A stretch of DNA of 64,000 nucleotides from Polyangiaceae bacterium (GTDB lineage Bacteria; Myxococcota_A; Polyangia; Polyangiales; Polyangiaceae): the NCBI GenBank assembly GCA_050287085.1, contig JBNKBE010000015.1:109030-173029 (forward strand), given 5' to 3'. Position 1 is the first letter of the stretch, and the number at the start of each line of letters is the position of its first letter. The notes beneath the pieces are model-generated. The model ran no database searches. It was given only the letters and a program-made list of their open reading frames with translations, and was not told where the DNA came from. Shown here piece after piece: positions 45,623-64,000 of this stretch. The position numbers were made by a program, and so were the translations under genes.

Positions 45623-45895
45623 TTGGCAACCATACTGCGTTTCGGACTGCTCAAAGTACAGGCAGCACAACGCGACCACGACAATAAACGACCAGCTCGC
45701 GAGAAATCACGCGGGGCAACGGAACGCCAGCATACACGACCCGCCGAACGCATAGGACTTTCACTGCAGGTTAGACGCCACCCCGCGCCCCCAAACAACG
45801 CCCGCCGCCACACCGCTTGCGATACGACTGACCGGTTCAAGGCTCTGCAACACACCGAGGGCCGCTGGCGCCCCCACACAGGCGCCTCCAGGACC

Positions 45896-46513: not shown

Positions 46514-46730
46514 AACTCCATAGCGGGTGATGTGGCCAGGTGATGTGTGGACGGTGCATCTTTCGCGAAGCCCCGCGGCCCAAAAGAGCCCGTTTCTGCT
46601 CGCGGGCGGAAACCCCTATTGACACATTCACCGATTAATCGTTGCGATTCGGCACAGATCTGGCCCTAGCTCCGCCAAGTCCCACCGCTCCCAATGGGAA
46701 CCCAGCGCGCCGAGCTCAAGCATCATCGAC

Positions 46731-47441
46731 ATGTCGGACTCTGCACCCCCTGAAGCACAACCCGCTTTGCCTGAACCGGCTGATACGATCCTAATTGTCG
46801 AAGACGAGCCGGCGTTGGCCGAGTCGGTGGCGTATGCCCTGCGGCGCGCGGGATTTCGAGCGGAGGTCGCCTGCAATCTCCGCTCGGCCCACGACCATCT
46901 CGATTCCGCAGCGCTGGTGTTGCTCGACCTGATGCTTCCCGATGGCAGCGGCATATCGCTGCTTCAAGCGCTGCGACACACGGGTCGAACGCTCCCCGTC
47001 ATCGTCGTCTCCAGTCGGGACGCCGAAGAGGATCGTATCACCGCACTCGAGCTGGGCGCCGACGACTACGTGACCAAGCCGTTTTCTCCGCGAGAGGTCT
47101 TGGCCCGTGTTCGCGCCGTGCTGCGACGGGTCCGAGGCGGCCTCGGCGGCGTTGGACTCTCGCTCAACAGCGAACAACGGCGCGCCCACTACGGCGAGCA
47201 ACTGCTCGCACTGACCCGCGTGGAGTTTGATCTCATCGTGGAGCTCTCCTCCGCCCCCGGGAAGGTCTTCGCTCGCCCCGAGTTGATCGCCAGGATCTGG
47301 GGCGAGAACTTCGCCATCACCGACCGCACCATCGACAGTCATATTAAGTCGCTGCGCCGCAAGTTGGTCGAGGCAGGGGGCTCCGCCGACGCCATCGAGA
47401 CCGTGCGTGGCGTCGGATACCGTCTTAACGTGGGGATTTGA
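46731..47441 (+). CDS. OmpR-family response regulator (CreB-like)
   Basis: VEDE, LDLMLPDG, GADDYVTKPF, RTIDSHIKSLR, TVRGVGY. Confidence 0.92.
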   Translation: MSDSAPPEAQPALPEPADTILIVEDEPALAESVAYALRRAGFRAEVACNLRSAHDHLDSAALVLLDLMLPDGSGISLLQALRHTGRTLPVIVVSSRDAEEDRITALELGADDYVTKPFSPREVLARVRAVLRRVRGGLGGVGLSLNSEQRRAHYGEQLLALTRVEFDLIVELSSAPGKVFARPELIARIWGENFAITDRTIDSHIKSLRRKLVEAGGSADAIETVRGVGYRLNVGI

Positions 47442-47444
47442 GCG

Positions 47445-48833: not shown

Positions 48834-48975
48834 CCTCTGGGCCCTACTCTGGGCCCCCTGTGTCAAAGTGATGCACTCTGGTCATCAGGCCGGGAGACCG
48901 CGTTGAGATGGCGATCGCGGCGGATTCCTTGAAACCTCCACAGACACGAGCCCGCTCTGGAGGGAAGGTCGTCTG

Positions 48976-49791
48976 GTGAAGTCAAGTCTCGGAAATCCGC
49001 CTCGTCACGTCGCTATCATCATGGATGGCAACGGACGTTGGGCAGAGCAACGTGGCCTAGCGCGCACCGCCGGACATCGGGCAGGCGCTGATTCGGTGCG
49101 CGAGGTGGTACGAACCTGCCGCGCCGAGGGAGTCCGCTATCTGACGCTCTACGCCTTCAGTGTGGCCAACTGGCATCGTCCGCCGCAGGAGGTCGGTGCG
49201 CTGATGGTGCTGCTGGCTCACTTCGCGCAGCAAGAACGGGACGAGCTAATCGAAAAGGGGATCCGACTCGAAGTCGTCGGAGACGTGTCAGCCCTGCCAG
49301 CCAGCGCGCGACAACCGCTCGAAGACACGATGCGCAGCACCGCACACGGACAAGACATGGTGCTTAGCTTGGCCCTGTCCTACGGCGGGCGTCGTGACAT
49401 GGTCCTCGCCGCAAGAACACTGGCCGAACGCGTGCGTCTGGGGTTGATGAGCGCAGACCAAATCGACGAGACAGCGTTCGCGGAAGCGATGAGCACCCAC
49501 CGACTCCCTCCAGTCGATCTCCTGATTCGCACGGGGGGTGAGTCCCGGATCAGCGACTTTCTCTTGTACGAGTCGGCTTATGCGGAGCTGCTATTCCTGC
49601 CGGTGATGTGGCCTGACTTCGGCGCCTCCGAAATGCGAGCGGCCATCACACACTTCCAAGGACGCGAACGGCGTTTCGGACTGACTTCCGCACAGGTGGC
49701 GCCATGCCCCGTACGTAAGCCGATAACCCCAAGCGACGAGGTCCCCAAAGCTCGAGAGCTGAGCCAACCTAGCTCCGAACGAGCCCCCTAG
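48976..49791 (+). CDS. uppS: Undecaprenyl/isoprenyl diphosphate synthase
   Basis: HVAIIMDGNGRWA, YAFS..NW.RP, DLLIRTGGESRISDFLL. Confidence 0.95.
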   Translation: MKSSLGNPPRHVAIIMDGNGRWAEQRGLARTAGHRAGADSVREVVRTCRAEGVRYLTLYAFSVANWHRPPQEVGALMVLLAHFAQQERDELIEKGIRLEVVGDVSALPASARQPLEDTMRSTAHGQDMVLSLALSYGGRRDMVLAARTLAERVRLGLMSADQIDETAFAEAMSTHRLPPVDLLIRTGGESRISDFLLYESAYAELLFLPVMWPDFGASEMRAAITHFQGRERRFGLTSAQVAPCPVRKPITPSDEVPKARELSQPSSERAP

Positions 49792-49836
49792 GGCTCGCGC
49801 GGGCCTCCGAAGCCAACGTCCGAGGGAGCCACTAAT

Positions 49837-50457
49837 CTAGAAGGAGTATTCCACGGTGTTGATGGATTGCACCTTCTCCTTGTACTCAAGCCCCCTGACA
49901 ACGCCGTCAACGCAGCGTTCGACCTGCTTGTTCGGCGACTGGACATCGGCGCCGACCACGCGCCCGTCCCACACCGCAATCCTCACCTGGAAGTGGTGGT
50001 AGGAGGTCACGTTGCACGCCTTGTAAGTGGCAAGATCTTGAAGCGGCTTGGCCAACACTTCGGCGTCAATCCCGACGAAGTCATAGTCGGAGGGCACGGC
50101 GGCAATAGCCTCGTTGACACTCATTCCTGGCTTGAACTCGGGCGCTCTAGGCGTCTTGATGGGATTGGCTTCGGCGACCTTTTCCGGCGCGACGTCTCGG
50201 TCCCTTCCCGTATCCCAAGACTGATCCGGCGCCTCTTCGGTCGCAGGCGGCTCATCCGGGGGAAAATCGGACGCTGGAGGGCCGCCGCAGCCCGCCAACA
50301 AGAGGCACCCCACAACCCCCGCACTGCCTAGCGCAAGGCGTCCTTCCCCCACACGCCGACGGCGCCCGTCGCTGAGAGCACAGCGGCCCGCGGCAACGGC
50401 CCGTCCGAAATTCCAAGAGCGGTACGTCCGCCTCGCGATATCCATAGCCGCCAGCAT
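49837..50457 (-). CDS. Hypothetical lipoprotein
   Basis: LLAGC lipobox; start probably downstream of 50457. Confidence 0.6.
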   Translation of the reverse strand: MLAAMDIARRTYRSWNFGRAVAAGRCALSDGRRRRVGEGRLALGSAGVVGCLLLAGCGGPPASDFPPDEPPATEEAPDQSWDTGRDRDVAPEKVAEANPIKTPRAPEFKPGMSVNEAIAAVPSDYDFVGIDAEVLAKPLQDLATYKACNVTSYHHFQVRIAVWDGRVVGADVQSPNKQVERCVDGVVRGLEYKEKVQSINTVEYSF

Positions 50458-50589
50458 ACGCCCATCGCCGCAGCTTCGTCCACCCTGGGCAATAGAGTCG
50501 AGCAGCGACGTTTGAGCGCACCTCTGGGCGATGTTGATGGGGCTATTGCCAAGCAGCGCTGGGCTGGTGATTCATCTCGGAGCCGCCGT

Positions 50590-52359
50590 TCACGACGCCA
50601 CGGCGCCCGACTTGCCCGCGATGGGAAGGCCCGCCGAAGCCACGGCGCTGGGAGCCGAAGGGGTCTCCGCCGTCTGCGGGCTCGCCTCCGTACCTGAACG
50701 CGGACCGCCCAAGGTCACCACGGCCCGTTCGATATCCCAGAAGAAGCGCTCGGGTCCAACCAACTCCCACAAGCCCGAGCGTTGCATCACTCGCCGAACC
50801 GGTCCTTTCACGTTAGCAAAGGCCATATCCCGTCCTTCGCCGCGCAGTCGCCTTACGGTGTGCCGGAGTGCGTCTTCGGCAGACGAATCCAGGTCGTTGA
50901 TGCTACTTGCATCGATCAACACCGTGTGAACCCCAGCCGGAGCGTCTCGCAAAAAGGCCTCTAGGCGATCTTTGAAGAACGCCACGTTGGCGAAGTAGAA
51001 CGAAGCGTCCATACGCAATATCAACAAACCTGCAATCGGCTCCGCTTCCGGGTAATTAAGGACGTTCCGATACACATTGGTCCCCGGTAGTCGTCCCAAT
51101 TCAGCTGTATGCGGCTGCGTGCTGCGTTTGATGAATGCCGCAAGGGAGGCCACTACTCCAACGAGGATCCCCTGCCCGATACCGACGCTAAGGGTGATAC
51201 AAAACGTCAAGAGCAGCAGCACGGCGTCGGCTCGACGAACGCGCCAGAGCCGGACGGGCTCGTGCAGGTCTATCAGTCCACTCACCGCCACCAGCACGAT
51301 ACTGGCGAGAATCGCCTTGGGCAGGTGATAGAACCACGAGGTCATGAACAACAAGGCAAGCGCCATCAATCCGGCCGCAATGACACCGGCCAGCGGCGAA
51401 CGGGCGCCCGCTTGGTCGTTGACCGCGCTGCGGGAAAACCCACCCGTCACCGGGTAGCCGCCGGTAACGTAGGCGGCTAGATTGGCCGCGCCCAAACCAA
51501 CCAACTCCCGATTCGAATCGACCTCATAGCCGTGACGCGCAGCGATCGCCTTGGCTACGCTGATCGCCTCCATGAAGCCGATCAGAGCAATCATGAAGGC
51601 CGTTGGAAGCAAGACCTGCAGCGTCTGAACGTCCAGAATCTGCAACGAGAAGGAAGGCAGCCCCGCCGGAACCTCTCCAACGATGGGTAGCCCCTGGGCT
51701 CCGAGCCCAAGACCGGCGGAAACAAGCGTGGAGACGAGCACAACGACCAGCGCCGCCGGCACCTTGGGCAGATAGCGCTTGAGCAGAACCAATCCGAGAA
51801 CGCCAAACACACCCAATGTCAGCGGGAGCGCACGCGCTTCAAGCAAACGTGGAGCGGCTTCAAGAAGAAACGCCTGGATCGTGGGAGTTCTTGGCAGGCC
51901 AACCCCCACGATATGCTTGAGCTGACTTGCACCGATCACGATGGCCGCAGCGGACGTGAAACCGCTGATAACGGGGCGCGATAGGAAGTTAACGAGGAAG
52001 CCGAGCCGCAGCAGGCCCATCAGGACTTGCAACAAGCCTGTCAGTCCCGCCAACACGATCGCCGCTACCCCAAACTCCGGAGAGCCGACGGGGGCCACGA
52101 GCGCAGCCCCGGTGGCAACGAGCAGCGAGTCCATAGCCACAGGGCCGACCGCGAGCTGCCGGGCCGTGCCCACCAAGGCGTAGGCCACGAGGGGCAAAAT
52201 CGATGCGTAGAGCCCCACCACGGGCGGAAGCCCAGCAAGCATGGCGTAAGCCATGCCCTGCGGAACCAGCATGACAAACACGGTGAGCCCCGCAACAATG
52301 TCACCGCGCAGGTCGCGCCTCACATCGTAGTCGGCTCTCCACGGAAGCAGACCAAGCAT
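50590..52359 (-). CDS. SulP-family anion permease with STAS domain
   Basis: PQGMAYA, GPVA, GFTSAAA, TGGFSRSAVN, YFAN, DSSA. Confidence 0.93.
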   Translation of the reverse strand: MLGLLPWRADYDVRRDLRGDIVAGLTVFVMLVPQGMAYAMLAGLPPVVGLYASILPLVAYALVGTARQLAVGPVAMDSLLVATGAALVAPVGSPEFGVAAIVLAGLTGLLQVLMGLLRLGFLVNFLSRPVISGFTSAAAIVIGASQLKHIVGVGLPRTPTIQAFLLEAAPRLLEARALPLTLGVFGVLGLVLLKRYLPKVPAALVVVLVSTLVSAGLGLGAQGLPIVGEVPAGLPSFSLQILDVQTLQVLLPTAFMIALIGFMEAISVAKAIAARHGYEVDSNRELVGLGAANLAAYVTGGYPVTGGFSRSAVNDQAGARSPLAGVIAAGLMALALLFMTSWFYHLPKAILASIVLVAVSGLIDLHEPVRLWRVRRADAVLLLLTFCITLSVGIGQGILVGVVASLAAFIKRSTQPHTAELGRLPGTNVYRNVLNYPEAEPIAGLLILRMDASFYFANVAFFKDRLEAFLRDAPAGVHTVLIDASSINDLDSSAEDALRHTVRRLRGEGRDMAFANVKGPVRRVMQRSGLWELVGPERFFWDIERAVVTLGGPRSGTEASPQTAETPSAPSAVASAGLPIAGKSGAVAS

Positions 52360-52374
52360 CGTGACGTCTCCTTT

Positions 52375-53448
52375 TCAAAGCGCCGAAGGGCGCGCGGGCT
52401 TGTTCGCCGCACGCCACTGGACCATTCCGCCACGCATCGACGCCACGCGACGAAAGCCAGCGCGCTCAAGCGCCAGCGCCGCAGTAGCAGAGCGTCGTCC
52501 AGAGCGACACACAACCACCAGCGGCGCCTCACGATTCCAGACTTCGCTAGAATGGTGAAGAGTCGCGAGCGGAACGAGCTCGCTGCCGGCGATGTGGCCC
52601 AGCTCGCCCGCGTACTCATCGGCTTCGCGAACATCGATGATGCGGGCTTCTGCGGGATGCTCGGCGACCCAATCGACCGTCACCTCTGGCACACCGTCCG
52701 CCACTCGCTCGATCGGCGCCCACGCCCTTTCACCCACCGGGCCCGCTGCCATAGGCACGTCCGCAACGCCACACGCCAGATTGGCCGGAACGGCTTCGTT
52801 TATCTTTTTCGGCTCTTTGAGCTTCAAGGCGCGCATGATTTCGACAAACTCGGCTTCGCTCCTGCTGGCGAGCCGAGGGTTGAAACGCTTCTCTTCCGCA
52901 ATGGTGCTCTCGAGCTGACCGCGATAGTCGTGCCCCGGAAAGACCCGCACGGCGTCGGGCAAGACAAAGAGCTTTTCGGTGATAGACCGGTATAGCTTCG
53001 CAGGATCCCCCTGCTGGAAGTCTGTACGCCCACAACCGCGAATCAAGAGTGCATCCCCCGTGAACACACGCCCCTCCGTCGGCTCATAGTAGGAAACACA
53101 ACCGTCGGTATGACCCGGCGTCTCCAGCACGCGGAGCGAGTAGCGGCCCAGCTGGAGCACGTCGCCATCGCGCACGGAGCGGCTTGCGCACCCCGTCCCC
53201 GCCGCGTGAGACAAGACGCTTTCGCTGCCAAGCCGCGTTCGAAGCACTCCCGAAGCCGTGATGTGGTCGGCGTGAACATGCGTCTCGAGGGTGAGCACCA
53301 GCCTCAAGTCCAGCTCTTCAAGCAGCTGAGCATCGCGCTCGACTTGATCTCGAACGGGATCGATGAGAAGCGCCTCCCGGGTTTCCTCGTCGGCCAGGAG
53401 ATAGGTGTAGGTGGAGGACTCCGGGTCGAACAACTGGCGAAAAATCAT
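52375..53448 (-). CDS. Persulfide dioxygenase (ETHE1-like MBL) fused to rhodanese
   Basis: ETHVHADH, TPGHT, GCGRTDFQ, PGHDY, NPRL; C-terminal DVRE..GHI..CRSGRRS. Confidence 0.92.
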   Translation of the reverse strand: MIFRQLFDPESSTYTYLLADEETREALLIDPVRDQVERDAQLLEELDLRLVLTLETHVHADHITASGVLRTRLGSESVLSHAAGTGCASRSVRDGDVLQLGRYSLRVLETPGHTDGCVSYYEPTEGRVFTGDALLIRGCGRTDFQQGDPAKLYRSITEKLFVLPDAVRVFPGHDYRGQLESTIAEEKRFNPRLASRSEAEFVEIMRALKLKEPKKINEAVPANLACGVADVPMAAGPVGERAWAPIERVADGVPEVTVDWVAEHPAEARIIDVREADEYAGELGHIAGSELVPLATLHHSSEVWNREAPLVVVCRSGRRSATAALALERAGFRRVASMRGGMVQWRAANKPARPSAL

Positions 53449-53475
53449 GCAGACACTCCTTTGTCGAAAGGCGCT

Positions 53476-53614
53476 ATACAACATTCATACCAGGCGCCAT
53501 TTCCCCCTGAGGGCCGCACGATCACTCAGCGATCTTGCCGGAACGCGTGGCTTCCCTCTTTGACTACGGCGCTAGACGCCCTGACTTGAAACAGCCTGCA
53601 ACGGAGCTTGCAAC
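53476..53614 (-). promoter_or_regulatory. Putative sigma54 promoter and enhancer for the dioxygenase-SulP operon
   Basis: Minus strand CTGGTATGAATGTTGTAT (53476-53493); TG(A/C)AAC at 53587, 53597, 53609. Confidence 0.6.
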
Positions 53615-53618
53615 AGCA

Positions 53619-54980
53619 TCAGCCGTCGTCCATCGCAGGTTCACTGGGCGGCGTCTCGCCGTCATGCGCCTTGTCGAGTCCAAGTCGCCGTAGCTTCCGC
53701 CACAACGTAACCCGGCTCAGGCCCAGCGCTTGGGCAGCTCGGCCGTGATGCCCCCCAGCGCGCTCGATGGCGCGCAGCAGGGTACGACCTTCTTCGCTGA
53801 GGTTGGAGGGCAGTTCGGTGCCGAGATTGGCGACGGGCGGCCTTGTCTCGCCATCACTCACCTCAGCGGGCAGATCGTGATCGAGCAGGACGGGCCCGTC
53901 CCCCATGACAAGTGCGTATTCGATCACGTTGCGCAGCTCGCGAACGTTGCCGGGCCAACCATACCCCTCGAGGATCGCCACAGCGGCTGGCGCGATGTGC
54001 TGCACTTGGCGCGCGCCGTCGGAGGCGAGTTGCTCGACAAAGCGGTGAGCCAAGAGCTCAATGTCCCGCGGCCGGTCACGAAGCGGAGGAAGAAAGAGCG
54101 GAACGACTCGCAGTCGATACATCAAGTCCGCTCGGAACTCGCCGGCCGCAACGGCCGCGCGCAGCGATCGGTGCGTGGCCGCCACAATACGCGTGTCGAC
54201 CGATAGCGGCTCCGTACCACCGACGGGGATCACGGTCTTCTCTTGCAGGACACGGAGCAGCTTGGCTTGCACCTCGAGTGGAAGCTCCGCCACTTCATCG
54301 AGGAATAGTGTTCCGCCGTCGGCCGCACGAAAATGTCCCGAGGAATTCCGAACCGCACCGGTGAAGGCACCGCGCACGTGCCCGAAGAGCTCGCTCTCTA
54401 GCAAATTCGGGGGCAGAGCCGCGCAATTGAGGGCCAGAAACGGTCCATCACGCCGCGATGAAGCCTGATGAATGGCCCGCGCCACCAGCTCCTTGCCAGT
54501 ACCGGTTTCTCCGCGGATCAGCACGCTCGCGTTGGTGCGCGCCACGCGTGCGATCTGCCGCAGCAGCTGCTTCATGCCCGCATCACGCGTTAAAATGCCC
54601 CAACTATCAGCGACCGCGTCGGGCCCCACGACCGCAAACTCATCGATGTCCAGGAGCAGAAGCCAGCCGGCGCGTTCCTCCCCCTCCGATTGGAGCGGGG
54701 TTGCACGAATCTGCACCATCCGTGTTTCACCCTCAGCCCATGGGCGCAGCACCTCCGCGCTCACCGACTCCCCTCGAGCCAGCGCTTCGGCCACCGGACG
54801 CTCCGGCCCCGAGCCACATAACAAGCGAGGAGCGGAGTCGCCGAGTTGGATCGGAGTACCCACCAGCTCTTCCGCCCGCGGGGTGAAGCCCACGACTCGA
54901 AGCTTCTGATCGAGTACGATCGCGGGTCCAGCCACCTCTTCTAGTGCCTGTAGAGTCACGGCAGACGGTGCTTCCATCAC
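53619..54980 (-). CDS. Sigma54-dependent activator (PAS-like + AAA+ + Fis HTH)
   Basis: [44 protein letters not shown]. Confidence 0.95.
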
Positions 54981-55050
54981 GGCAGAGCCTAGCTCATGCC
55001 ATTCTCAATGAGCGAGCACGATTCTTAAGATGGGTTAGCCCCGGCGCCCC

Positions 55051-55524
55051 TTATGTGCTGCGCGGCGCGCCCGGAGCCACGACCGATGTTCGCAGCTCAA
55101 GTTGGCGCCCCTCCCACAGCTCGTAGCGACGAAACAACCACATCCCGAAAAGCATAGAAGCGGCGAAGATCCAGGTGCCCGAGGAGGGGCGGCTAAGCCC
55201 CACGACCAGTGGCCCCGGGCAATATCCTCCCATGCCCCAGCCCACGCCGAAGATCGCCGAGCCAAGCAGCAGCTTGCGGTCGACCTGCTTGTTGGTCGGC
55301 AGATAAAAGCGTGGCGCAAAGACCGGGCGCGAGCGGCGGAATACCCAGCGAGACAGCCCAAAGTTGACACCCACGCCGGAGACCATCACGAATGCCAGCG
55401 AGGGGTCCCACTCGCCTGCAAGGTCGAGAAAGCCCACGACCTTGGAGGGCAATGTCATGCCCGCCACCGACAACCCCAGGGAGAACAGGACGCCCGCGAA
55501 AAGCCCAACAAGTGCTTGTTTCAC
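55051..55524 (-). CDS. YeeE/YedE-family sulfur-compound transporter subunit
   Basis: GM..PSKVVGFLD..WDPSLAFVM, FGVGWG..GYCPGP. Confidence 0.88.
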   Translation of the reverse strand: MKQALVGLFAGVLFSLGLSVAGMTLPSKVVGFLDLAGEWDPSLAFVMVSGVGVNFGLSRWVFRRSRPVFAPRFYLPTNKQVDRKLLLGSAIFGVGWGMGGYCPGPLVVGLSRPSSGTWIFAASMLFGMWLFRRYELWEGRQLELRTSVVAPGAPRST

Positions 55525-55958
55525 GACACACCTCCGGTGAGCAAACGCATCGCCAGAACGGTCAAGACGCCGCTAGCGATGAAAGTGAGCACGGAAGCCA
55601 AAGAGCGCTCGGACAGACGAGCGAGCCCGCACACGCCATGTCCGCTGGTGCAACCGCTCCCCAAACGGGCTCCAAACCCCACCAGCACACCAGCTACCAC
55701 CCAGGTAAGCGGGGCACGGGTGACGTCCAACTCGATCCAACTCGGGCGAATCTGAGCGACCGCGACGCCCCCCCCGACGAGTCCAAGCACAAACGCCGCT
55801 CGCCAGCCAAAGCCTTCGTTGCGAGGAGTCAGAAGGCCCCCAAGAATGCCGCTGATGCCCGCGATGCGGCCATTGAGCCACATCAAGAGGGCTGCTGAGA
55901 GCCCTATCATGGCGCCGCCCAACAAGGCAGACCACGGAGTAAAGTCATGAATCGTCAT
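55521..55958 (-). CDS. YeeE/YedE-family sulfur-compound transporter subunit
   Basis: GRIAGISGI, GSGCTSGHGVCG. Confidence 0.9.
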   Translation of the reverse strand: MTIHDFTPWSALLGGAMIGLSAALLMWLNGRIAGISGILGGLLTPRNEGFGWRAAFVLGLVGGGVAVAQIRPSWIELDVTRAPLTWVVAGVLVGFGARLGSGCTSGHGVCGLARLSERSLASVLTFIASGVLTVLAMRLLTGGVS

Positions 55959-56031
55959 TGTCTCATTCCTGTTTTGGACGGGTTTGCTCCCAAGCCGCGG
56001 GTGCGACCGTCCACATTTGTTGAGGAGCTGT

Positions 56032-56151
56032 TTACACATTCCATGCCAACACCAAAGAAGCGGCGAGCATCAGCCTCTTCCGCGGGCACCGGCAGGCGCC
56101 GCCCCTACGCCCCGGACCACCGGTGCAACGAGCTGCAACCGCCCTTGAAAC
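56032..56151 (-). promoter_or_regulatory. Putative sigma54 promoter and enhancer for the YeeE/YedE pair
   Basis: Minus strand TTGGCATGGAATGTGTAA (56032-56049); TG(C/A)AAC at 56124, 56134, 56146. Confidence 0.6.
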
Positions 56152-56265
56152 GAGAGCCGTCGAGCTCCGGGGCGCGCTCAAGCGAGTTGACCCTTCGGAC
56201 GGCCATCGCGAGACTAGCTTTTTTGCGGACACCTTTGAAGGCCATACGCTACAAAGGCCGCGTCA

Positions 56266-56339
56266 GCGCCCGTAGCTCAGCTGGATAGAGCGATGGCCTT
56301 CTAAGCCATTGGTCGCAGGTTCGAATCCTGCCGGGCGTG
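56266..56339 (+). tRNA. tRNA-Arg(UCU)
   Basis: GCGCCCG TAGCTCAG, anticodon loop CTTCTAA, GCAGG TTCGAAT CCTGC; CCA not encoded. Confidence 0.95.
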
Positions 56340-56481
56340 CTCACCTTTGGAGGCGGAGGGCCTTGTTGTTCGCACGCCCTCCGTGTTTCTGGGAGCCGGG
56401 GCCCCGGAGCCCCAGCTCCTGCCTGACGCTGACGAGCGCTCTGGGCGTGCGGTAAGGGACGGCGGGGCGTGCGTTGACGCG

Positions 56482-56677
56482 TCGCTCGCCCTGCGGGCCT
56501 CGCGCACTGCGCTGGCCGCCCGTGACGGGTCGCTCGCCCTGCGGGCCTCGCGCACTGCGCTGACGGCTGCGCGCGGGAAAAACGCGCCGGGGGCGCTCGC
56601 TCGCCCTGCGGGCCTCGCGCACTGCGCTGGCCGCCCGTGACGGGTCGCTCGCCCTGCGGGCCTCGCGCACTGCGCTG
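56482..56677. repeat. Four exact 33-bp direct repeats TCGCTCGCCCTGCGGGCCTCGCGCACTGCGCTG (REP/BIME-like)
   Basis: Copies at 56482, 56530, 56597, 56645; linkers 15, 34 and 15 bp, first and third identical. Confidence 0.9.
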
Positions 56678-56744
56678 AGCGGCGCAGGCGCCGTGACGCG
56701 CCACAACTGCAGTGACGAACAAGCTCAGAACGCGAGCGCGGCGC

Positions 56745-56853
56745 GGCGCGTGCGCCACTAGCAAGACGAACTCGAAACCCCAAGCGCGCTCAACTCGAGC
56801 CGGCTATGCGCATCGAGACACCTCGCGCTCCGACGTGCAGCTCACCTTCCCCC
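56745..56853. repeat. Dispersed ~108-bp repeat, copy 2 (copy 1 at 13922-14029)
   Basis: Direct sequence match. Confidence 0.9.
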
Positions 56854-56928
56854 GGCGCCCGCAGCCCAGGGCGAGGACGGCTTGGGGGAAGCAGCAGACC
56901 GAAGGGCTGCTGGATGGGGGCAACCCCA

Positions 56929-57058
56929 TTCGAATCCGCAGGTCGGGGGTTCGAGCCTTCGTTGACGAAGTACAGCGCGCTGGACGTAGTCAACGAAGGC
57001 CTACGGCCCTCGCGACAGCGAGGGAGCGGCGCAGCCGCAGTGAATCCCTCGGGGCGCG
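56929..57058 (+). pseudogene. 3' half of a tRNA-Arg(UCG)-like gene with an 89-nt palindromic insertion in the T-loop
   Basis: TTCGAA TCCGCA GGTC GGGGG TTCGA [insert] AT CCCTC GGGGCGC G. Confidence 0.55.
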
Positions 57059-57360
57059 CTGCTGTGGTCGTGGGGCCTTTCGGCCCCAGCTCACCTCTGT
57101 CCCTTCTGCGTTTCATGGCGCCGCCTCCGGCGACGCGGTCCTCGCCCGCGAGCGGGCGCCGCGCCCCAGCACGCCACTGCGGTTCAGAGCCACTGCGGTT
57201 CAGCCCACCCCTCCCATCGCCAACCCTCAACCCGCCGTGTATCCCGGCCGTTGTATCCCGGAGCGACTGCATCCCCCCCTGGCGCCTCAATTGAGCGCGC
57301 GGCGAGGCACTGCCCGCAGGGCGGACGACAAGTATAGCACAAGTCCAAGCAAAACACCCT

Positions 57361-57430
57361 GGTGGAGTCGCCCTGGTGGGCAAGCACTGTTGTGACCCGT
57401 GCGGTATGGTTCGATTCCTCGCTTCACCCC
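57361..57430 (+). ncRNA. Degenerate tRNA-His(GUG)-like element
   Basis: GGTGGAG/CTTCACC stem, GCCC-TGGT-GGGC D arm, GCAC..TTGTGAC..GTGC anticodon arm, GGTTCGATTCC; T stem weak. Confidence 0.55.
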
Positions 57431-57616
57431 TAGCTGGAGCCGCAGCAAATTGCGTCTCTCGCCACTACTCCGCGGCGCCCGGTGCTAGTGCTAATCAAGG
57501 AAGTTCCACCGGGCGCCGTGGATCCTTTCCCGATTGGCACAATCAAGCCCAGCCCCGTGGACTACTGTGGAGCGACCGCTTCGCAGGTTTCAGCGCCACG
57601 GCAGAGGAGCCAACCC

Positions 57617-58144
57617 ATGCACGACCGAACCCTGTTGCTTACCCCTTGGTACTTCCCCCACCGCATCGTGCGCTGGCAAGACGCGGTGACCATGGTCTTC
57701 CTCGGCAAGGCGGAAGTGGTGGTCAGCTATGACGCGGTGTTACGCTCACCGTCGATGGCCATGCCCTCACCCGCCGTAATCCGCGTGCGCAAGCTGCGGC
57801 GTAGCAACAAGCCAGGTGTACGCTTCTCTCGCGTGAACGTCTACACGCGGGATGACTTCCGGTGTCAATACTGCGGGGAACGCTTCGACCACCGCATGCT
57901 CAGCTACGACCACGTGACGCCCCGTTCCGCGGGTGGCCGCACTGAGTGGACAAACATCGTCACCGCGTGCAAGCCCTGCAACAACAGCAAAGGACACCTG
58001 ACCTGTGACGAAGCCGGCATGTGGCCCTTGCAGCGCCCCGTGCAACCCACGTCGCTGCCGCCGATCGGGCCGCTGGTCATTCCAGCGCGAGCGCCGCGCG
58101 AGTGGCGCGCCTTCATTCCCGCTGCCTGGGCGTCCCGCATTTAG
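57617..58144 (+). CDS. HNH endonuclease (McrA/COG1403-like)
   Basis: GAGGAG RBS; FSRVNVYTRD..CQYCG..DHVTPRS.GG..W.NIVTACKPCNNSKG. Confidence 0.92.
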   Translation: MHDRTLLLTPWYFPHRIVRWQDAVTMVFLGKAEVVVSYDAVLRSPSMAMPSPAVIRVRKLRRSNKPGVRFSRVNVYTRDDFRCQYCGERFDHRMLSYDHVTPRSAGGRTEWTNIVTACKPCNNSKGHLTCDEAGMWPLQRPVQPTSLPPIGPLVIPARAPREWRAFIPAAWASRI

Positions 58145-58352
58145 GAGCAGTCTCCGAAAGCGGGGCGCCACGGGCGCGCCGCAAGGGCCGGCCACGCTGA
58201 GCGACGCTCTACACAAACGTCGGGCCGAGCATCCGCAGCGCCGCCGGTGTAGGGCATCCGCAGCGCCGCGGTCAGGTCTGCTGGGGCGTCGCTGGGACCG
58301 ACCGGCAGTTTTCACCGAGTCCGTCCCCCTCTTGCCGTGTTAGAAAGAAAAC

Positions 58353-59717
58353 ATGGCAAAGGGAGACATCAGGGCGGGCCGCAGCGCGAACACTACGCGG
58401 CGCGCGCGGCGGCAGTCAGGTTCGTCGCAGTGTGGGCGCGGAAGTCGTTTGGCCGCGTGGTGCTTGGCAGCGCTAGGCCTGTTGACGTACGAGCGAGGTG
58501 CATCCGCGTGTTCCGGCCACCAATTCGAGCGAGCTGAGGTCCTTTACCCGGAGCGGGGGCTAGCTGGAGTTCCGACCAACGTGGTGCCCCTGTTCTCAGC
58601 GAGCACCTTGGCAGCCGTAGGTCTCTTCGATGCGTCCGGTGCAGCGGTCCAAGGCGACATCTTGGAGCTTGGCCTAACGCCGTACGAGATGAACGAGGGG
58701 GAAGATGAAGATGGCACCCCTCTGCTGTTCAGCACAAGCTTCACTGACACCCTGTTTCAGTTCGTACCAAAGGAAGAGCTCACCCCGCTGGAGCAGTACG
58801 ACCTCGTCGTCGTCGCGGCGAACGTTCCTGAGGCCCGCGTGCTGAGCGACTATCCAGCGGCACTACAAGAAGCGGATGCTGGTGCGCTCGCCAGCGCTGT
58901 CATCAGAACGACCTGGCCAGGCGCAGCCGGCGACGGCAAGGCGATGCTCTACCGCGTGCCGTTCGAAGCTGGTGATGGCGACCTGACGAGCATGCCGCCG
59001 GCCCCCAAAGCCACCTGGCTGAGTCACGGCTACTTCGAGGACGGCGGCAGCGCCGCGTGTCAAGGTCAGCACCGCGTGTGTTTGCGAGACCTACCAGCCG
59101 GTGAGCTGCTACTTGCGGAGCTCGTGTTCGAGAGCGAGGAGGGCAACGTGCGTCGCACCGTCGGCGTGGCACGGAGCACGGAGTATCAAACGAACAGCTT
59201 GCCCCAAGACGCCCGCCTGCGGGCTGCAACGCTCACGACCGTGAACGCAGTCGGCCGCCGCTCACCCCCTGTGGAGTTGGGCGAGCGGGACCTGGCCAAC
59301 TACTTCGTGCCAGAGACGGCCGACGTCCCGATCGGACTGCTCTGCGAGCAACAATGGGCCGAGAGCAAGTGGCCCTTCCCCGCGCAGGGGGGAACGGATC
59401 GTCCTCTTCCCGACGCGGGCGCGCGCCCAGCAGAACCGATGAACGATGGCGGCGCGCGTCCAGCTGAGTTTGATGCAAGCGCGCCGCGCGCAGACGGCCC
59501 CCCGGACGCGGGCGCCCTCGACTCCGTCACCTTCGTGCGAGTGGGCGGCTGTACCCTGAGCGCAGCTCGCGACACGTCTCTACCGTGGACAGGCACCTGG
59601 TTGGCGGCCGCGGTGCTACTCGCGTCCGCGCGGTGCAAAGGGCATGGCACAGGATTCACGAGTACGCTTCGACGTTCGCGGCTGCGCGACACGCTTCTTC
59701 GAAGCTGGCCGCGATGA
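58353..59717 (+). CDS. Exported hypothetical protein with possible MYXO-CTERM-like tail
   Basis: Signal-like segment ending ASAC; DAG-rich linker; GGC + hydrophobic stretch + basic residues near the C-terminus. Confidence 0.6.
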   Translation: MAKGDIRAGRSANTTRRARRQSGSSQCGRGSRLAAWCLAALGLLTYERGASACSGHQFERAEVLYPERGLAGVPTNVVPLFSASTLAAVGLFDASGAAVQGDILELGLTPYEMNEGEDEDGTPLLFSTSFTDTLFQFVPKEELTPLEQYDLVVVAANVPEARVLSDYPAALQEADAGALASAVIRTTWPGAAGDGKAMLYRVPFEAGDGDLTSMPPAPKATWLSHGYFEDGGSAACQGQHRVCLRDLPAGELLLAELVFESEEGNVRRTVGVARSTEYQTNSLPQDARLRAATLTTVNAVGRRSPPVELGERDLANYFVPETADVPIGLLCEQQWAESKWPFPAQGGTDRPLPDAGARPAEPMNDGGARPAEFDASAPRADGPPDAGALDSVTFVRVGGCTLSAARDTSLPWTGTWLAAAVLLASARCKGHGTGFTSTLRRSRLRDTLLRSWPR

Positions 59718-59958
59718 AACCCGGCTCATGGCTTGCGCGCCATGAACCTTGCTTGCGAGCTGCCCCAGCACATGCCGGGGGCGCTTGCCTTTGCGCTCAA
59801 TGGTGGCGGAGCGGCGAGCGGCGGCATGACCACCAGCGATCACGGGACGGCAAGCGGCGGAGTGGCCAAGAGCGATGACGGGACCGCAGAGCAAGACGCA
59901 AGTGGAGCTAGCCAGCGCCTGCGGCACGTGCACTCGCTTCCCCGTGTGTCAGGAGCGT

Positions 59959-61530
59959 TCACTCCCAATCATCAAGGGGCTCGGGCTCGAGGTGGCCGAG
60001 CCGATCGAGCGGGCTCTTTACGCCAAGGGGTCCACGCTCCACTACGTGGGCGTAGATCATGGTCGTGCGAACATCGGCATGGCCCAGCAGCTTCTGGATG
60101 GTGCGGATGTCGTAACCGGACTCCAGCAAGTGAGTGGCAAAAGAGTGGCGCAGGGTATGGCAAGAGACCGGCTTGGTGAGCCGGGCGCGCAGGCCCGCTT
60201 CGCGCACGGCCCGCTGCAGCGCGGTCTCGTGCAAGTGGTGGCGGCGACGCTGACCGGTAGCCTCGTCGACATGGGTGCGCGTCGCCGGAAACACCCACTG
60301 CCAGCGAAGCTCCGTGGGCGCAGACGGATACTTGCGAGCGAGGGCCTCAGGGAGGGTCACCGCGCCCCCGCCTCGAAGCAAGTCTCTTTCGTGCTGCAAA
60401 CGAACGCGCTCGAGTTGCGCCCTCAGCGGGGCGCGCAGCGTTTGTGGCAGCAGCGCAGTACGGTCCTTCTTCCCTTTGCCGCGGCGCACGGTAAGTTGTG
60501 AACGGGCAAGATCTACGTCCTTGACGCGCAGCGTGATGCACTCCATCAGCCGCAGCCCAGAGCCGTAGAGCAAGCTTGCCATCAGGCGCTGGTTGCCCCG
60601 CAGCTCCGCCAAGAGCTGGCCTACCTCTGCCGCGGAGAGCACGACGGGCAACCGCTTGGGTCCGCGAGCGCGCACCACCGCGTCAACGAGCCCAAGGGGT
60701 TTACCCAGCACCTCCTTGTAGAGAAATATCAGGGCCGCTAGCGCCTGATTCTGCGTCGACGCGCTCACCCGCTCTTTCGTCGCCAAAAGCGAGAGAAACG
60801 CCGCGACTGCAGGCTCCCCGAGCGACGCCGGGTGAACGCGCCCGGAGTGCGCGATGTAACGCCGGATCCAACGCTCGTAGGCCTCCGCCGTTCGCGGACT
60901 AGCGTGCCGCACCTCGAGCCGGCGCCGCGCCTCCTCGATGATGGCCCGTGGCGAAGCCAAAGCGTGGGAGGGCGCTGGCGCAATCACCGGCGAGGCGGAG
61001 GCGGGCGCCGGAACGTCGGGACCACGCGGCAGAACGCGAGGGGCAGCGGCGAGATGCGGCGGAGACCGCTGCGCGGGCGCCAGCGGCGAAGGCGACGGCA
61101 CGACGGGCGGCGACAAAAGGGACGCCGCAGCGGATCTGGCGCGATGCGGCTCGGGCTGACCCGCGGGCGGCGGCGGTGAAGTAGGCGGAGGGGACGACGG
61201 CGAGAGAGGCGGCGAGGGCGGCGGCACGGACGGAAGGCGGTCGCAGTGCGAATGGGGTTTCGGCGGCGCTCGCCGCGCCAGCGCGGACGTCAGCGAAGGA
61301 GCCGCGGGGGGAGCGGGAGCGGCTGGCGGGCGCCGCGCGGCTGGCGGCGAGGGCGCTGGCGGTGGCGGGGAAGCCGCTGGCGGGCGCGCCGCAGGGGATG
61401 GCGACCGCCTCGGGGACCGACCGGCGGATGACGGCGGGGGCGCCACCGGCGGCGAGTCCAGCGTGGCTGTGGGCGCCTCAGGCGACGGCGCAGACGGGAG
61501 TGGCTCACTTGGGGGCGTTGAGGGGCACAT
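59959..61530 (-). CDS. intI: Integron integrase (tyrosine recombinase), possibly with Pro-rich N-terminal extension
   Basis: SASTQNQAL, LYGSGLR, KGKKDR, IntI-specific ALARKYP..WQWVFPA..RRHH, HTLRHSFATH, LLGH, TTMIY; start uncertain (61530 or ~60940). Confidence 0.95.
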   Translation of the reverse strand: MCPSTPPSEPLPSAPSPEAPTATLDSPPVAPPPSSAGRSPRRSPSPAARPPAASPPPPAPSPPAARRPPAAPAPPAAPSLTSALARRAPPKPHSHCDRLPSVPPPSPPLSPSSPPPTSPPPPAGQPEPHRARSAAASLLSPPVVPSPSPLAPAQRSPPHLAAAPRVLPRGPDVPAPASASPVIAPAPSHALASPRAIIEEARRRLEVRHASPRTAEAYERWIRRYIAHSGRVHPASLGEPAVAAFLSLLATKERVSASTQNQALAALIFLYKEVLGKPLGLVDAVVRARGPKRLPVVLSAAEVGQLLAELRGNQRLMASLLYGSGLRLMECITLRVKDVDLARSQLTVRRGKGKKDRTALLPQTLRAPLRAQLERVRLQHERDLLRGGGAVTLPEALARKYPSAPTELRWQWVFPATRTHVDEATGQRRRHHLHETALQRAVREAGLRARLTKPVSCHTLRHSFATHLLESGYDIRTIQKLLGHADVRTTMIYAHVVERGPLGVKSPLDRLGHLEPEPLDDWE

Positions 61531-61884
61531 AGGTTCTCTGGAGGCAGTGCCTGCCTCCGGTTGCAGCAGCGATGCCACCGCCCCGAAGCCGCATTGCCCG
61601 CGAGCACAACACAGCAACACGGTGACCGCCACCGGCCGCCACTCCCCTCGCAGCCACCCCCAAGCCCCGCTGCAATCCGCCAACACAAACCACAGCAGCC
61701 CCCCGGCGCCGTTCGAGTCGCGCACCCTCCCCCTCGCAGCCTAACCAGCCGCCACCGCGCAAGAAGCAGCCTAGTCCAATACGCGGCCTTAACCGGGTGC
61801 TCCTCAACAAGCTCACCCGCGCAAGAACTCGCGATTGGAGTTTCACATCGCCGCGACCCGCGGTACCCTCATCGAATCCCGCAG

Positions 61885-61925
61885 GTTAGATGGAGAGGCC
61901 CGCGGGTGAATTAGTAGTTAGCCAG
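61885..61925 (+). other. attI site (crossover in GTTAGCC at 61917-61923)
   Basis: Lies between intI and first cassette; GTTAGCCAG is the exact reverse complement of CTGGCTAAC at the attC start; extra GTTAGAT at 61885. Confidence 0.8.
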
Positions 61926-61942
61926 ACCAGAGCGGAGCACAC

Positions 61943-62584
61943 GTGAAGACACCACCCATCGAAACGCTTGATGCCGAAGACTTCACGAGCAAACTTGCAA
62001 AGGAGACAGACCGAGCGTGTGCGGTCCTTGGGGCTGCGTGGCTTGATGCAAGACTGGAGGAACTCCTTCGGCGTCGCCTAAAACACGATGTCGATGAGCT
62101 TCTCAGGCCCGGTCGTGCGCTGCAGAGCTTTAGTGCCCGGATCCGCCTCGCACGTAGCTTGTGCTGGATAGACGAGGCCACCGGCTACGACCTTGATACC
62201 ATCAGAACAATCCGCAACGACTTCGCGCATAGCTTTGATCATTCTCTCGGATTTGAAAGTCAATCGATCGCCGCTCGCTGTCGAACTCTACGTTCAGCGA
62301 ACGCCTACCTGGACGGCACCACTGAAGCCGCTAAACACCAGCCCAACTTCTCGACCCACGTCTTCGAACGCGTACGAAGCAAACTCGGTGAGCCGAGATG
62401 GCGGTTCCAGATCGCGGTGGAGTTCATCGAGCAGATTCTGCAAGAGCTTCCGGAGCTCGAGTCGCGCTACTCGGGCCCAGACCTCTGCGCCGAGGTCTTC
62501 AAGGTAAGCGCGGCTCAGCGATTTCACGTCCGAGCTACCCTGACCGTTGGCGATCCAGTCGACACTAAGGCGGCGGGGCACTAG
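61943..62584 (+). CDS. MltR-like protein with HEPN-type RxxxxH motif (cassette gene 1)
   Basis: DRACAVLGAAWLD..LEELL, FSARI.LA, IRTIRNDFAH; GGAG RBS before GTG. Confidence 0.75.
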   Translation: MKTPPIETLDAEDFTSKLAKETDRACAVLGAAWLDARLEELLRRRLKHDVDELLRPGRALQSFSARIRLARSLCWIDEATGYDLDTIRTIRNDFAHSFDHSLGFESQSIAARCRTLRSANAYLDGTTEAAKHQPNFSTHVFERVRSKLGEPRWRFQIAVEFIEQILQELPELESRYSGPDLCAEVFKVSAAQRFHVRATLTVGDPVDTKAAGH

Positions 62585-62591
62585 ACAGACC

Positions 62592-63620
62592 ATGCTCGTC
62601 GTCATCGATGCGAATATTTGGATCGCTGAACTCGCCCTCAACTCAGGGTTAGGGGCGGCGGTGAGATTCTATCTGAGGCAGCGCGCCGCGACGCTAGTGC
62701 TCCCGGAGGTTGTTCGTCGCGAAGTCGAGCACCATCTCCGTGATAAGCTGCAGACCCACATTGATCGTATCGGAGCGGAATACCGTCAGCTCTTGGGCGT
62801 GTTTGGGCAACTTAAGGAGCTAGTGCTCCCTGGCGAGGCGGACATCACCACACGAATCGATGGGCTTTTTGGCTCCGTTGGTGTGCCTGTCCGAGAGGTC
62901 CCCTTCGACATCGATGCCGCGAGAAGCTCGCTGGACAAGGTGCTTGAGAAGAAGCCCCCGTCCCACAAGTCACAACAGTTCAAGGATGGGGTAATCTGGG
63001 CGCACTGTGCTCAGCTTGTTCGCGAAGACGAGGTCTACCTTGTCACAAACGACAAGGCCTTTTACAAGAACGGCGCTTACGAGGCGGGCCTTGCCCCCAA
63101 TCTGCTCGCCGAAGTCTCCGGCCACCACGCGTTTCATCTAGTTCCAGAGCTCAGGTCTCTTCTCGGCGCGCTCCAAGAGCCGATCGCTTGGTCCTCAGGG
63201 CTGCTCGCCGAAGCTCACTCGCAAGCGCACGGAAGGGCTTGGCAAAACCTCCTGGACCGGTCGGGGTTCTCGCGCGCAGATCTTCTCGACGCAGCGGCCG
63301 ACTTCTATGCGACAGAAAGCCCCGACTTCCTCTTCGTGGAGTTCTCGCTGACCTTCCGATGTCCGGACACAGCCAACCGAGGCCGCGCAGACGCCCTCCT
63401 TAGGGTACGTGGAGATGGCGCATTCGAGCCCTCCGCGGGTCGTTTCTTTTCTTTGGGCCGCTTGGGTGAGTCGCTTCAGTACCGAGAGGATGAGCAGGAC
63501 AGGACCTTCACCAATCACGTTGCGCGGGTTGGACCCATCGTCATCGGTCACAAGACCGTGCAGCATCATATCCGACACCCGCTCAGCCTGAAGAATGACA
63601 CAGGCAATCCCCCAGACTGA
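62592..63620 (+). CDS. PIN-domain protein (DUF4935-like; cassette gene 2)
   Basis: VVIDANIW, PEVVRRE, KDGVIW, LVTNDKAF acidic motifs. Confidence 0.8.
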   Translation: MLVVIDANIWIAELALNSGLGAAVRFYLRQRAATLVLPEVVRREVEHHLRDKLQTHIDRIGAEYRQLLGVFGQLKELVLPGEADITTRIDGLFGSVGVPVREVPFDIDAARSSLDKVLEKKPPSHKSQQFKDGVIWAHCAQLVREDEVYLVTNDKAFYKNGAYEAGLAPNLLAEVSGHHAFHLVPELRSLLGALQEPIAWSSGLLAEAHSQAHGRAWQNLLDRSGFSRADLLDAAADFYATESPDFLFVEFSLTFRCPDTANRGRADALLRVRGDGAFEPSAGRFFSLGRLGESLQYREDEQDRTFTNHVARVGPIVIGHKTVQHHIRHPLSLKNDTGNPPD

Positions 63621-63660
63621 AGCGACGGGGGTGAACATTTGCAATGGACGGCGTTAAGCT

Positions 63661-63814
63661 GGCTAACAAGGGTTTGAACCAGACCGGGCCCCTGAGGCGC
63701 CTCGCCTTGCTGGAAGGTCATCGTCGGAGGGCGGCGAAGCGCCGCCTCTTCTTTGAGCTGATGCCACCTGCTAGGTTGTCTTGGAAGGGCCCGGCAGGTT
63801 AAACCCGAGCCGTT
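63661..63814 (+). other. attC site
   Basis: R'' GGCTAAC; L'' TTT(G)AACC pairs with L' GGTTAAA leaving one extrahelical base; CCGGGCCC/GGGCCCGG inner stem; R' GTT at 63812. Confidence 0.88.
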
Positions 63815-64000
63815 GAGGCCGTAGAAAAACCTACGAGACCCCTTGGATTGTAGCCTCGGGATGGATAGAAATCACCGCGGCACGGGTTATTGGAGGGCCC
63901 GCCGATGGCGAAGTACATCCCCTACGATCTCAACCAGACCAAGATGATCCCTTTGGCCTATGCCGACCAGATCGTCGAGGGCTCCTTCGAGCACGCCCTC
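63815..64000 (+). mobile_element. IS1182-like element, left end and transposase start (ATG 63905, runs off window)
   Basis: End GAGGCCGTAGAAAAA; GGAGG RBS; MAKYIPYDLNQTKMIPLAYADQIVEGSFEHAL resembles IS1182 N-termini. Confidence 0.65.

What the first reader, a model, noticed from the sequence alone, without database searches (positions are those of the whole stretch)
57361..58144. HNH nuclease preceded by a tRNA-His mimic and a structured RNA leader
Seen: a cloverleaf-like element with GUG anticodon, His-like acceptor end, shrunken D-loop and mismatched T and anticodon stems. It is followed by a perfect 12-bp hairpin (CGGCGCCCGGTG/CACCGGGCGCCG, 57473-57518) and a nested stem (57555-57601) ending just before the RBS of an intact zinc-finger HNH gene. 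Established: HNH genes of this type occur beside tRNA arrays, and tRNA-like RNAs occur in RNA-repair loci. The protein lacks IscB/Cas9 RuvC motifs. Inference: a compact ncRNA + nuclease unit in which the tRNA mimic serves as a processing signal, decoy, regulator or RNP partner. This is the best candidate here for an undescribed system.
Basis: partly seen in the sequence, partly recalled or inferred. Interest (0 to 1): 0.72.

Follow-up and report, generated by a model that had tools for sequence, protein, structure and literature searches.

The report
Eroded tRNA array with IshB-like nuclease
This is the leftover of a bacterial spare-tRNA gene cluster: one damaged copy of an unusually compact histidine tRNA and an intact small nuclease built like a relative of the Cas9 ancestor IscB remain, while the neighbouring hairpins are not conserved.

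Summary
The sequence features are real, but they do not form a dedicated RNA-nuclease unit. The gene (57617-58144, 175 aa) belongs to a Polyangiaceae HNH clade that sits inside tRNA arrays (24 of the 27 closest loci). The tRNA element (57361-57430) is not a one-off mimic. It belongs to a conserved class of 69-71-nt array and phage tRNA-His: 3-4-nt D-loop, 7-bp anticodon stem, 4-bp T-stem, usually G-1:C73. The class has strong covariation, and I did not find it described. The window copy is the most damaged one examined (4 broken pairs against 0-2). The hairpins have no homologue in 382 family genomes, and long hairpins are ordinary spacers in these arrays. Relatives share a different leader (short ORF plus terminator) that is missing here. 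The protein's N-terminal domain folds like the RNA-contacting PLMP domain of IscB/IsrB, so it fits the published definition of IshB (PLMP plus HNH, no RuvC). Best reading: an eroded stress-type tRNA array that kept its IshB-like nuclease gene. An RNA partner for this nuclease family remains an open and testable question.

The parts
56266..56340 (+). Canonical tRNA-Arg(TCT); housekeeping gene and start of an insertion hotspot
   Evidence: ARAGORN; Rfam 72.3 bits
56929..57132 (+). Copy of the 3' half and trailer of tRNA-Arg(TCG), interrupted by a repeat hairpin; att-like left boundary of the inserted segment (inferred)
   Evidence: 26 of 26 nt identical and 87% over 92 nt to contig C27
57173..57203 (.). 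Two exact 15-nt direct repeats; role unknown
57238..57261 (.). Two exact 10-nt direct repeats; possible operator (inference only)
57333..57338 (+). Candidate -10 hexamer TATAGC about 23 nt before the tRNA (read by eye; not called by the promoter scan)
   Evidence: sequence; scan found 0 sites
57361..57430 (+). Damaged member of the compact array-type tRNA-His(GUG) class: G-1:C73, 7-bp acceptor and 4-bp D-stem intact; 2 of 7 anticodon-stem pairs and 2 of 4 T-stem pairs broken; CC but no encoded CCA
57469..57522 (+). 16-bp GC-rich hairpin (12 bp perfect, 57473-57518), 22-nt loop; not conserved; of the type common in array spacers
57555..57601 (+). Nested two-stem element, weakly supported and not conserved
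57603..57609 (+). Ribosome-binding site AGAGGAG
   Evidence: sequence
57617..58144 (+). 175-aa nuclease: N-terminal PLMP-fold domain (residues 3-60) plus zinc-finger HNH (about 61-145), no RuvC; IshB-like

Best explanation
The locus is the eroded remnant of a horizontally moving, translation-stress tRNA array (L-array) of the Polyangiaceae type, lodged behind a tRNA-Arg insertion hotspot. Shown by comparison: intact relatives run leader (short ORF plus terminator hairpin), tRNA genes separated by GC-rich hairpins, the HNH gene, then more tRNAs. Here the leader, the boxA-like motif and all tRNAs but one are gone. The surviving tRNA-His is the compact array type and has begun to decay; the hairpins are leftover spacer DNA; the nuclease gene is intact. 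Inferred working of the parent unit: ribosome stalling in the leader ORF opens the terminator, and the polycistronic transcript yields spare tRNAs (including the compact, probably chargeable tRNA-His) and the nuclease. Inferred role of the nuclease: its PLMP-fold domain binds structured RNA of the array or translation apparatus and the HNH domain cuts one strand. I put about 45% on an RNA-engaged processing or turnover role, 35% on a DNA nickase that spreads the array, 20% on other roles. At this locus the His copy is probably not used in translation (the host has a canonical tRNA-His) and the hairpins are probably not a specific partner.
For: 24 of 27 closest loci hold 3 or more same-strand tRNAs. 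The protein lies in a 16-row clade (support 100/97); 13 of the other 15 rows are in arrays of 3 to about 22 tRNAs and 2 have none, so erosion recurs. Compact His class: 26 sequences, 95.5% of cells paired, 17 of 23 pairs with changes on both sides, 0 of 500 shuffles; 32 of 35 distinct members have 2 or more other tRNAs nearby and only 1 has a second His. Window copy: 4 broken anticodon- and T-stem pairs against 0 (16 sequences), 1 (9) or 2 (1); 64.3 bits against 68.6-78.9 for nine held-out compact hits. Spacer 57432-57616: no credible match in 382 family genomes (2 short hits of 24-32 nt at E 7e-4 to 9e-4). Strong hairpins occur in 12 of 46 array spacers at z <= -3 and 2 at z <= -5. Shared leader found for 11 of the 15 other clade members but not in the window or own genome. 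Canonical tRNA-His on contig C4. Anabaena L-array is stress-induced with a co-induced HNH gene, and such arrays suffer frequent deletions and hold pseudogenes (PMC8421152, sections 21 and 22 read).
Against: All four broken pairs lie in the anticodon and T stems, while the acceptor (with G-1:C73), D-stem and GUG are perfect; by my arithmetic random placement gives this about 4% of the time. The closest copy (L158) also has an irregular T-stem yet sits in a live array. No close strain was available to test conservation of the hairpins: the nearest homologous proteins are only 62-69% identical. The 180 nt before the gene are more structured than shuffles (z -4.2) whereas array-free homologues are not. 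No expression data. The role of the nuclease is not tested at all.
Confidence: 0.75

Rival explanations
1. Streamlined functional unit: the array was trimmed to the RNA parts that the IshB-like nuclease needs, with the His-like element as processing signal or decoy and the long hairpin as binding site for the PLMP domain.
For: PLMP-fold domain, which in IscB touches the last stem-loop of the omega RNA (PMC10734217, passages). His identity elements intact and damage confined to two arms. Leader more structured than shuffles.
Against: No conservation of the hairpins. His is not the usual neighbour of the gene. Two clade members have the gene with no tRNA at all. 51 array-free homologues share no upstream sequence across lineages and have median folding z near 0.
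Confidence: 0.12
2. A working one-tRNA operon: the compact tRNA-His is still processed, charged and used, and is co-expressed with the nuclease.
For: Scores 64.3 bits, close to held-out members. G-1, C73 and GUG present. L158 tolerates a bulged T-stem. Mini-arrays of 3-6 tRNAs exist in the clade.
Against: U51.U63 breaks a pair kept in 35 of 35 members and U30.C40 breaks a pair invariant in 26 of 26. Host has a canonical tRNA-His. Regulatory leader lost.
Confidence: 0.1
3. Chance juxtaposition: a random tRNA-like sequence beside an unrelated HNH gene.
For: ARAGORN at the relaxed threshold makes 401 calls in this genome against 48 genes at default.
Against: Model score E 1.9e-13; same tRNA class occurs in the arrays of the gene's closest relatives.
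Confidence: 0.03

Closest known systems
Long tRNA arrays (L-arrays), e.g. the Anabaena PCC 7120 trn operon with HNH gene all8564 (PMC8421152; PMC10272220); Mycobacterium tRNA array units (PMC5966550)
   Same: HNH gene linked to a supernumerary tRNA array; RtcB, TROVE, SPFH and nucleotidyltransferase genes near relatives' arrays (one search read by eye for RtcB); frequent deletions and pseudo-tRNAs.
   Different: Only one tRNA is left here. Relatives carry a short-ORF/terminator leader, whereas Anabaena uses the repressor TrcR. I did not test directly whether All8564 is the same protein family; cyanobacterial and mycobacterial plasmid HNH genes match at 36-38%, and the one I opened had no tRNA within 4 kb.
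[quoted passage not shown] The defining Science paper is not held.
   Same: About 180 aa, PLMP-fold domain plus HNH, no RuvC.
   Different: No omega RNA, IS200/605 transposase or IS ends seen here; context is tRNA arrays. The PLMP match is structural only.
(8/4) tRNA-His of phages and an alpha-proteobacterium (Mukai et al., PMC5389517; passages and supplementary table rows 4-33 of 46)
   Same: tRNA-His(GUG) with a 4-bp T-stem, found in tRNA gene clusters.
   Different: Those lack G-1, have A73 or U73, a normal D-loop and 72-77 nt. The class here has C73, G-1 in 25 of 35, a 7-bp acceptor, 3-4-nt D-loop, 7-bp anticodon stem and 2-nt variable region; its anticodon signature is not among their His rows.
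tRNA-Pyl and mitochondrial tRNA-Ser(UCN) folds (PMC7609411, passages)
   Same: One-base acceptor/D linker, small D-loop, lengthened anticodon stem, tiny variable loop.
   Different: Those have a 6-bp anticodon stem and 7/5 acceptor branch; this class has 7 bp and a 4-bp T-stem, with His identity.
IscB with omega (HEARO) RNA
   Same: PLMP-fold and a closely similar HNH domain.
   Different: No RuvC or bridge helix; NCBIfam score 50 against 175; no HEARO match in 44000-64000 or 57100-58400.

Membership tests
L-array (long tRNA array) | Many co-oriented tRNA genes in one unit | tested here: not met
   One damaged tRNA at the locus; met by relatives
L-array (long tRNA array) | Supernumerary to the housekeeping tRNA set | tested here: met
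   Canonical tRNA-His on C4
L-array (long tRNA array) | Linked HNH gene of the array clade | tested here: met
L-array (long tRNA array) | Induction by translation stress | not testable with these tools
   No raw RNA reads for this organism
IshB | About 180 aa | tested here: met
   175 aa; most of 150 listed homologues 160-220 aa
IshB | N-terminal PLMP domain | tested here: met
   By fold only: the five best of 48,161 chains are IscB/IsrB N-termini, Z 5.0-7.1, rmsd 2.2-3.2 A, 48 residues; next 3.2. Foldseek E 0.3; no sequence match
IshB | HNH domain, no RuvC | tested here: met
IshB | Match to the authors' IshB profile or clusters | not testable with these tools
   Defining paper and its supplements not held
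IscB / OMEGA RNA-guided nuclease | Split RuvC plus HNH, about 400 aa | tested here: not met
IscB / OMEGA RNA-guided nuclease | Conserved omega (HEARO) RNA next to the gene | tested here: not met
   No Rfam match; no conserved upstream RNA
Compact array tRNA-His class (defined here) | Length, arm geometry and His identity elements | tested here: met
   64.3 bits, full-length match
Compact array tRNA-His class (defined here) | Fully paired T-stem and G30:C40 | tested here: not met
Mukai (8/4) tRNA-His | 8-bp acceptor without G-1, A73 or U73 | tested here: not met
   G-1:C73 present; compare
Ro60/Y RNA-RtcB RNA-repair locus | Linked TROVE (Ro60), RtcB and Y RNA | tested here: not met
   TROVE not found in the 96.8%-complete genome; RtcB on another contig; no Y RNA match over the element

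The most novel reading that the evidence does not exclude
IshB-type PLMP-HNH proteins are RNA-bound nucleases whose partner is not an omega RNA but the structured RNA of tRNA arrays, and this locus is a minimal natural version that kept only a His-like acceptor/D half and a long hairpin for the protein to bind. That would give the smallest member of the Cas9 ancestry a tRNA-derived partner.
Probability: 0.12. Interest if true: 0.85.

Novelty: new variant of a known kind. Interest (0 to 1): 0.45.

Why it matters
The locus itself is an ordinary decayed array. Two by-products matter more. First, a conserved non-canonical bacterial and phage tRNA-His fold (4-bp T-stem, 7-bp anticodon stem, 3-4-nt D-loop) that fills the His slot of arrays and that I did not find described; it tests the structural limits of tRNAs on bacterial ribosomes and may be a useful scaffold. 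Second, the HNH gene of these arrays has the IshB architecture, which links a poorly studied branch of the IscB/Cas9 ancestry to stress tRNA operons and gives concrete RNA candidates to test.

Tried and rejected
Hairpins as decayed tRNAs: best local alignments of five segments to 635 tRNAs from fetched loci did not beat shuffles (11-29 of 30 shuffles as high). Hairpins as a genome repeat: no copy in the own genome. Nested stem as homologue of the pre-Pro spacer of L167/L168: similar outline, but the motif occurs in 0 of 173 spacers. Leader in phages: no match; compact His in plasmids: no match. Rfam: nothing near a gathering score over 57100-58400. Thg1 as partner for members lacking G-1: not found in own genome; not tested in others. 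Sigma-70 promoter scan: 0 sites. Sequencing runs (contigs only): one RNA-library contig covers 57872-58057 with 2 differences, none covers the tRNA or hairpins; a second DNA run covers parts of the gene at low depth but not the leader; neither shows anything about expression or conservation. Search for IscB loci for a profile comparison: none in 121 and 251 genomes, and controls did not ring, so no profile-profile test of the PLMP match was made. RRXRR was not among the 25 of 64 Pfam families shown for 88 homologues. PADLOC hits are HNH-domain only. No protein complex prediction was run, as no protein partner is claimed.

Full report
1. Observation. All features are in the sequence. The gene runs 57617-58144 (175 aa; homologues align from this ATG) and matches Pfam HNH_5 and HNH with intact zinc and catalytic residues. 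The cloverleaf at 57361-57430 is missed by ARAGORN at default and called tRNA-His at 90% threshold; that threshold alone is weak, since it gives 401 calls in this genome. The 12-bp hairpin is strong (z -5.9) but 162 such hairpins exist in the genome and 6 in the window. The nested stem is marginal (z -1.7).

2. The gene belongs to tRNA arrays. A scan of genome contigs returned the best 80 of 289 relatives. Of the 27 closest loci, 24 hold three or more same-strand tRNAs within 3 kb and 23 have a tRNA within 400 nt upstream: Leu in 19, and Gly, Asp, Pro, Ile once each. Of the other 53 loci, 1 has three or more. At relaxed threshold one locus (L018) has a canonical His directly before the gene. 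A tree of 70 rows (window, L001-L058, L158, L159 and nine loci from related genomes; L059-L080 left out) puts the protein in a 16-row clade with support 100/97. Thirteen of the other 15 rows lie in arrays, from 3 tRNAs (L002) to about 22 (L001), and two (L007, L011) have none. Erosion is therefore common in this clade. Neighbours of relatives include SPFH, TROVE and HD/nucleotidyltransferase genes (24 ORFs scanned) and an RtcB-like gene read by eye. The window has none of these beside the gene; its RtcB lies on another contig and TROVE was not found.

3. The tRNA is a member of a conserved compact class. The element is 72-76% identical to tRNA-His genes in relatives' arrays. Pattern scans found 27 metagenome and 11 viral stretches. 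I aligned 26 sequences (21 of the 27 metagenome hits, leaving out five near-duplicates and one non-tRNA, plus five genome copies). The fold is G-1:C73, 7-bp acceptor ending in U7.G66, one linker base, 4-bp D-stem with 3-4-nt loop, 7-bp anticodon stem, two variable bases and a 4-bp T-stem. Of 596 cells 95.5% pair, 17 of 23 pairs change on both sides, 0 of 500 shuffles reach this, and slid registers give 41-49%. Caveat: the pattern fixed the loops, two closing pairs, G66 and the CCC end, and kin inflate covariation. Among 35 distinct members, 25 have G-1, 28 encode CCA, 32 have two or more other tRNAs nearby and 1 has a second His in the fetched DNA, so it normally fills the His slot of an array. 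The model matched 6 of 150 family genomes (two of them weaker, longer hits), 3 of 17 genus genomes and 0 of 150 genomes drawn across the phylum: patchy, as for mobile arrays. The window copy scores 64.3 bits, under nine held-out compact hits at 68.6-78.9 and above longer, intermediate forms at 46-57. It has four broken anticodon- and T-stem pairs against 0-2 in the 26. The closest copy is L158, where His opens a small His-Glu-Pro-Leu-Leu-HNH-Leu-Ser array; the window looks like that layout with the other tRNAs deleted (inference). The host has a canonical tRNA-His.

4. The hairpins are not a conserved RNA. The 185-nt spacer has no credible match in 382 family genomes, in 165 fetched loci or in the phage collection. 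Array spacers are routinely long GC-rich or nested hairpins of unrelated sequence: 12 of 46 reach z <= -3 and 2 reach z <= -5, against -5.3 for the window (examples). What relatives do share is a different leader: a short ORF ending mostly 25-50 nt before a terminator-like hairpin followed by a U-rich tract, and often a boxA-like motif (name recalled). I found it for 11 of the 15 other clade members, including both tRNA-less ones; for the other four it was not within the fetched DNA. A profile of 14 leaders recovered held-out metagenome arrays but nothing near this locus or in the own genome. Its stem is mostly invariant (4 of 11 pairs change on both sides), and its role as an attenuator is inference. 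Upstream of the His element lies instead a copy of the 3' half of tRNA-Arg(TCG) with its trailer, which reads as an insertion boundary.

5. The protein is IshB-like. The AlphaFold model (pLDDT 93) matches Cas9/IscB HNH domains over 61-145 and, separately, the first 46 residues of an IscB over residues 3-60 (Z 6.1, rmsd 1.2 A). Folded alone (pLDDT 92.5), the N-terminal domain's five best matches among 48,161 chains are all IscB or IsrB N-termini (Z 5.0-7.1, 48 residues aligned; next 3.2). Foldseek ranks the same chains first without a significant E-value, and there is no sequence match. Reviews define IshB as about 180 aa with PLMP and HNH and no RuvC, and state that PLMP contacts the last stem-loop of the omega RNA (PMC10734217, PMC11610941, PMC13284715; passages). 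One of them says omega RNAs occur with IshB; I saw none here. Fifty-one array-free homologues share no upstream sequence between lineages and are not unusually structured, which argues against a fixed cis RNA for the family.

6. Mechanism. Shown: common descent of the tRNA and the gene from an array; loss of leader and other tRNAs; damage to the tRNA; intact gene; PLMP-like fold. From literature: L-arrays spread horizontally; the Anabaena array and its HNH gene are induced by translation stress, 23 of 26 tRNAs are charged, and the authors suggest a homing role for the HNH (PMC8421152, sections 21-22 and passages; TrcR in PMC10272220, passages; HNH as the commonest gene in mycobacterial arrays, PMC5966550, passages). 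Inferred: attenuator control in relatives, function of the compact tRNA, and the nuclease's substrate. I lean to an RNA-engaged role because the gene lies under the array's leader, has an RNA-contacting fold, persists as a stand-alone gene in most genus members and is invaded by inteins, which is more usual for conserved genes than for selfish ones (own knowledge). Homing remains a close rival.

7. Against my reading. Damage spares the acceptor, D-stem and anticodon (about 4% by chance, my arithmetic), the nearest copy also has an irregular T-stem, and no close strain or raw RNA data exist to test the hairpins.

8. Novelty. tRNA arrays with HNH genes are known. The compact tRNA-His was not found in searches, in passages of PMC7609411 or in the text of the PMC5389517 supplement (its figures are pictures and were not seen). 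A link between IshB and tRNA arrays was not found, but the defining Science paper and its supplements were not available and may mention it. The leader was not found. Unchecked notes of this scan report the same leader, remnant state and IshB identity in other genomes; I reached the leader and the fold result before seeing them or independently of them, and they are not evidence. Verdict: real features, decayed array, two useful by-products; interest 0.45.

Noticed in passing
L004:1471-1580, L162, L163, L167, L168, L135, L138 and others: Conserved array leader: short ORF whose stop is followed by a G-rich stretch able to pair with the 5' strand of a terminator hairpin; looks like a translation-coupled attenuator; no Rfam match in L158 at gathering threshold.
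   Followed up: partly
L158 about 1055-1280 (minus strand): tRNA-Leu(GAG)-like gene with an insertion of roughly 150 nt of nested hairpins in the variable arm (read by eye).
   Followed up: no
P0031, P0049, P0088, P0095: Homologues interrupted inside the first zinc-finger motif by intein-like inserts, one with a LAGLIDADG domain over the Pfam cut-off.
   Followed up: partly
Gln-Asn spacers of L004, L012, L132, L133, L136, L138, L162, L166: Recurrent hairpin, boxA-like motif, then a long stem: a conserved non-tRNA element inside arrays.
   Followed up: no
window 56440-57170: Stack of genome-wide repeats behind tRNA-Arg(TCT), including a split copy of the tRNA-Arg(TCG) 3' half.
   Followed up: partly
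window 59959-63620: Integron-type integrase gene on the minus strand with divergent cassette-like genes of lower GC, one a PIN domain protein; the window ends at the contig end.
   Followed up: no
L132, L133, L138, L143, L131, L159, L173, L177, L179, L181: Ten of 35 compact tRNA-His genes lack an encoded G-1 but keep C73; they may need a Thg1-like enzyme.
   Followed up: no
window 58229-58269: Two exact 16-nt direct repeats downstream of the gene.
   Followed up: no
P0123, P0073, P0105: Longer homologues; P0123 has an N-terminal extension that reads like a eukaryotic targeting peptide (by eye).
   Followed up: no
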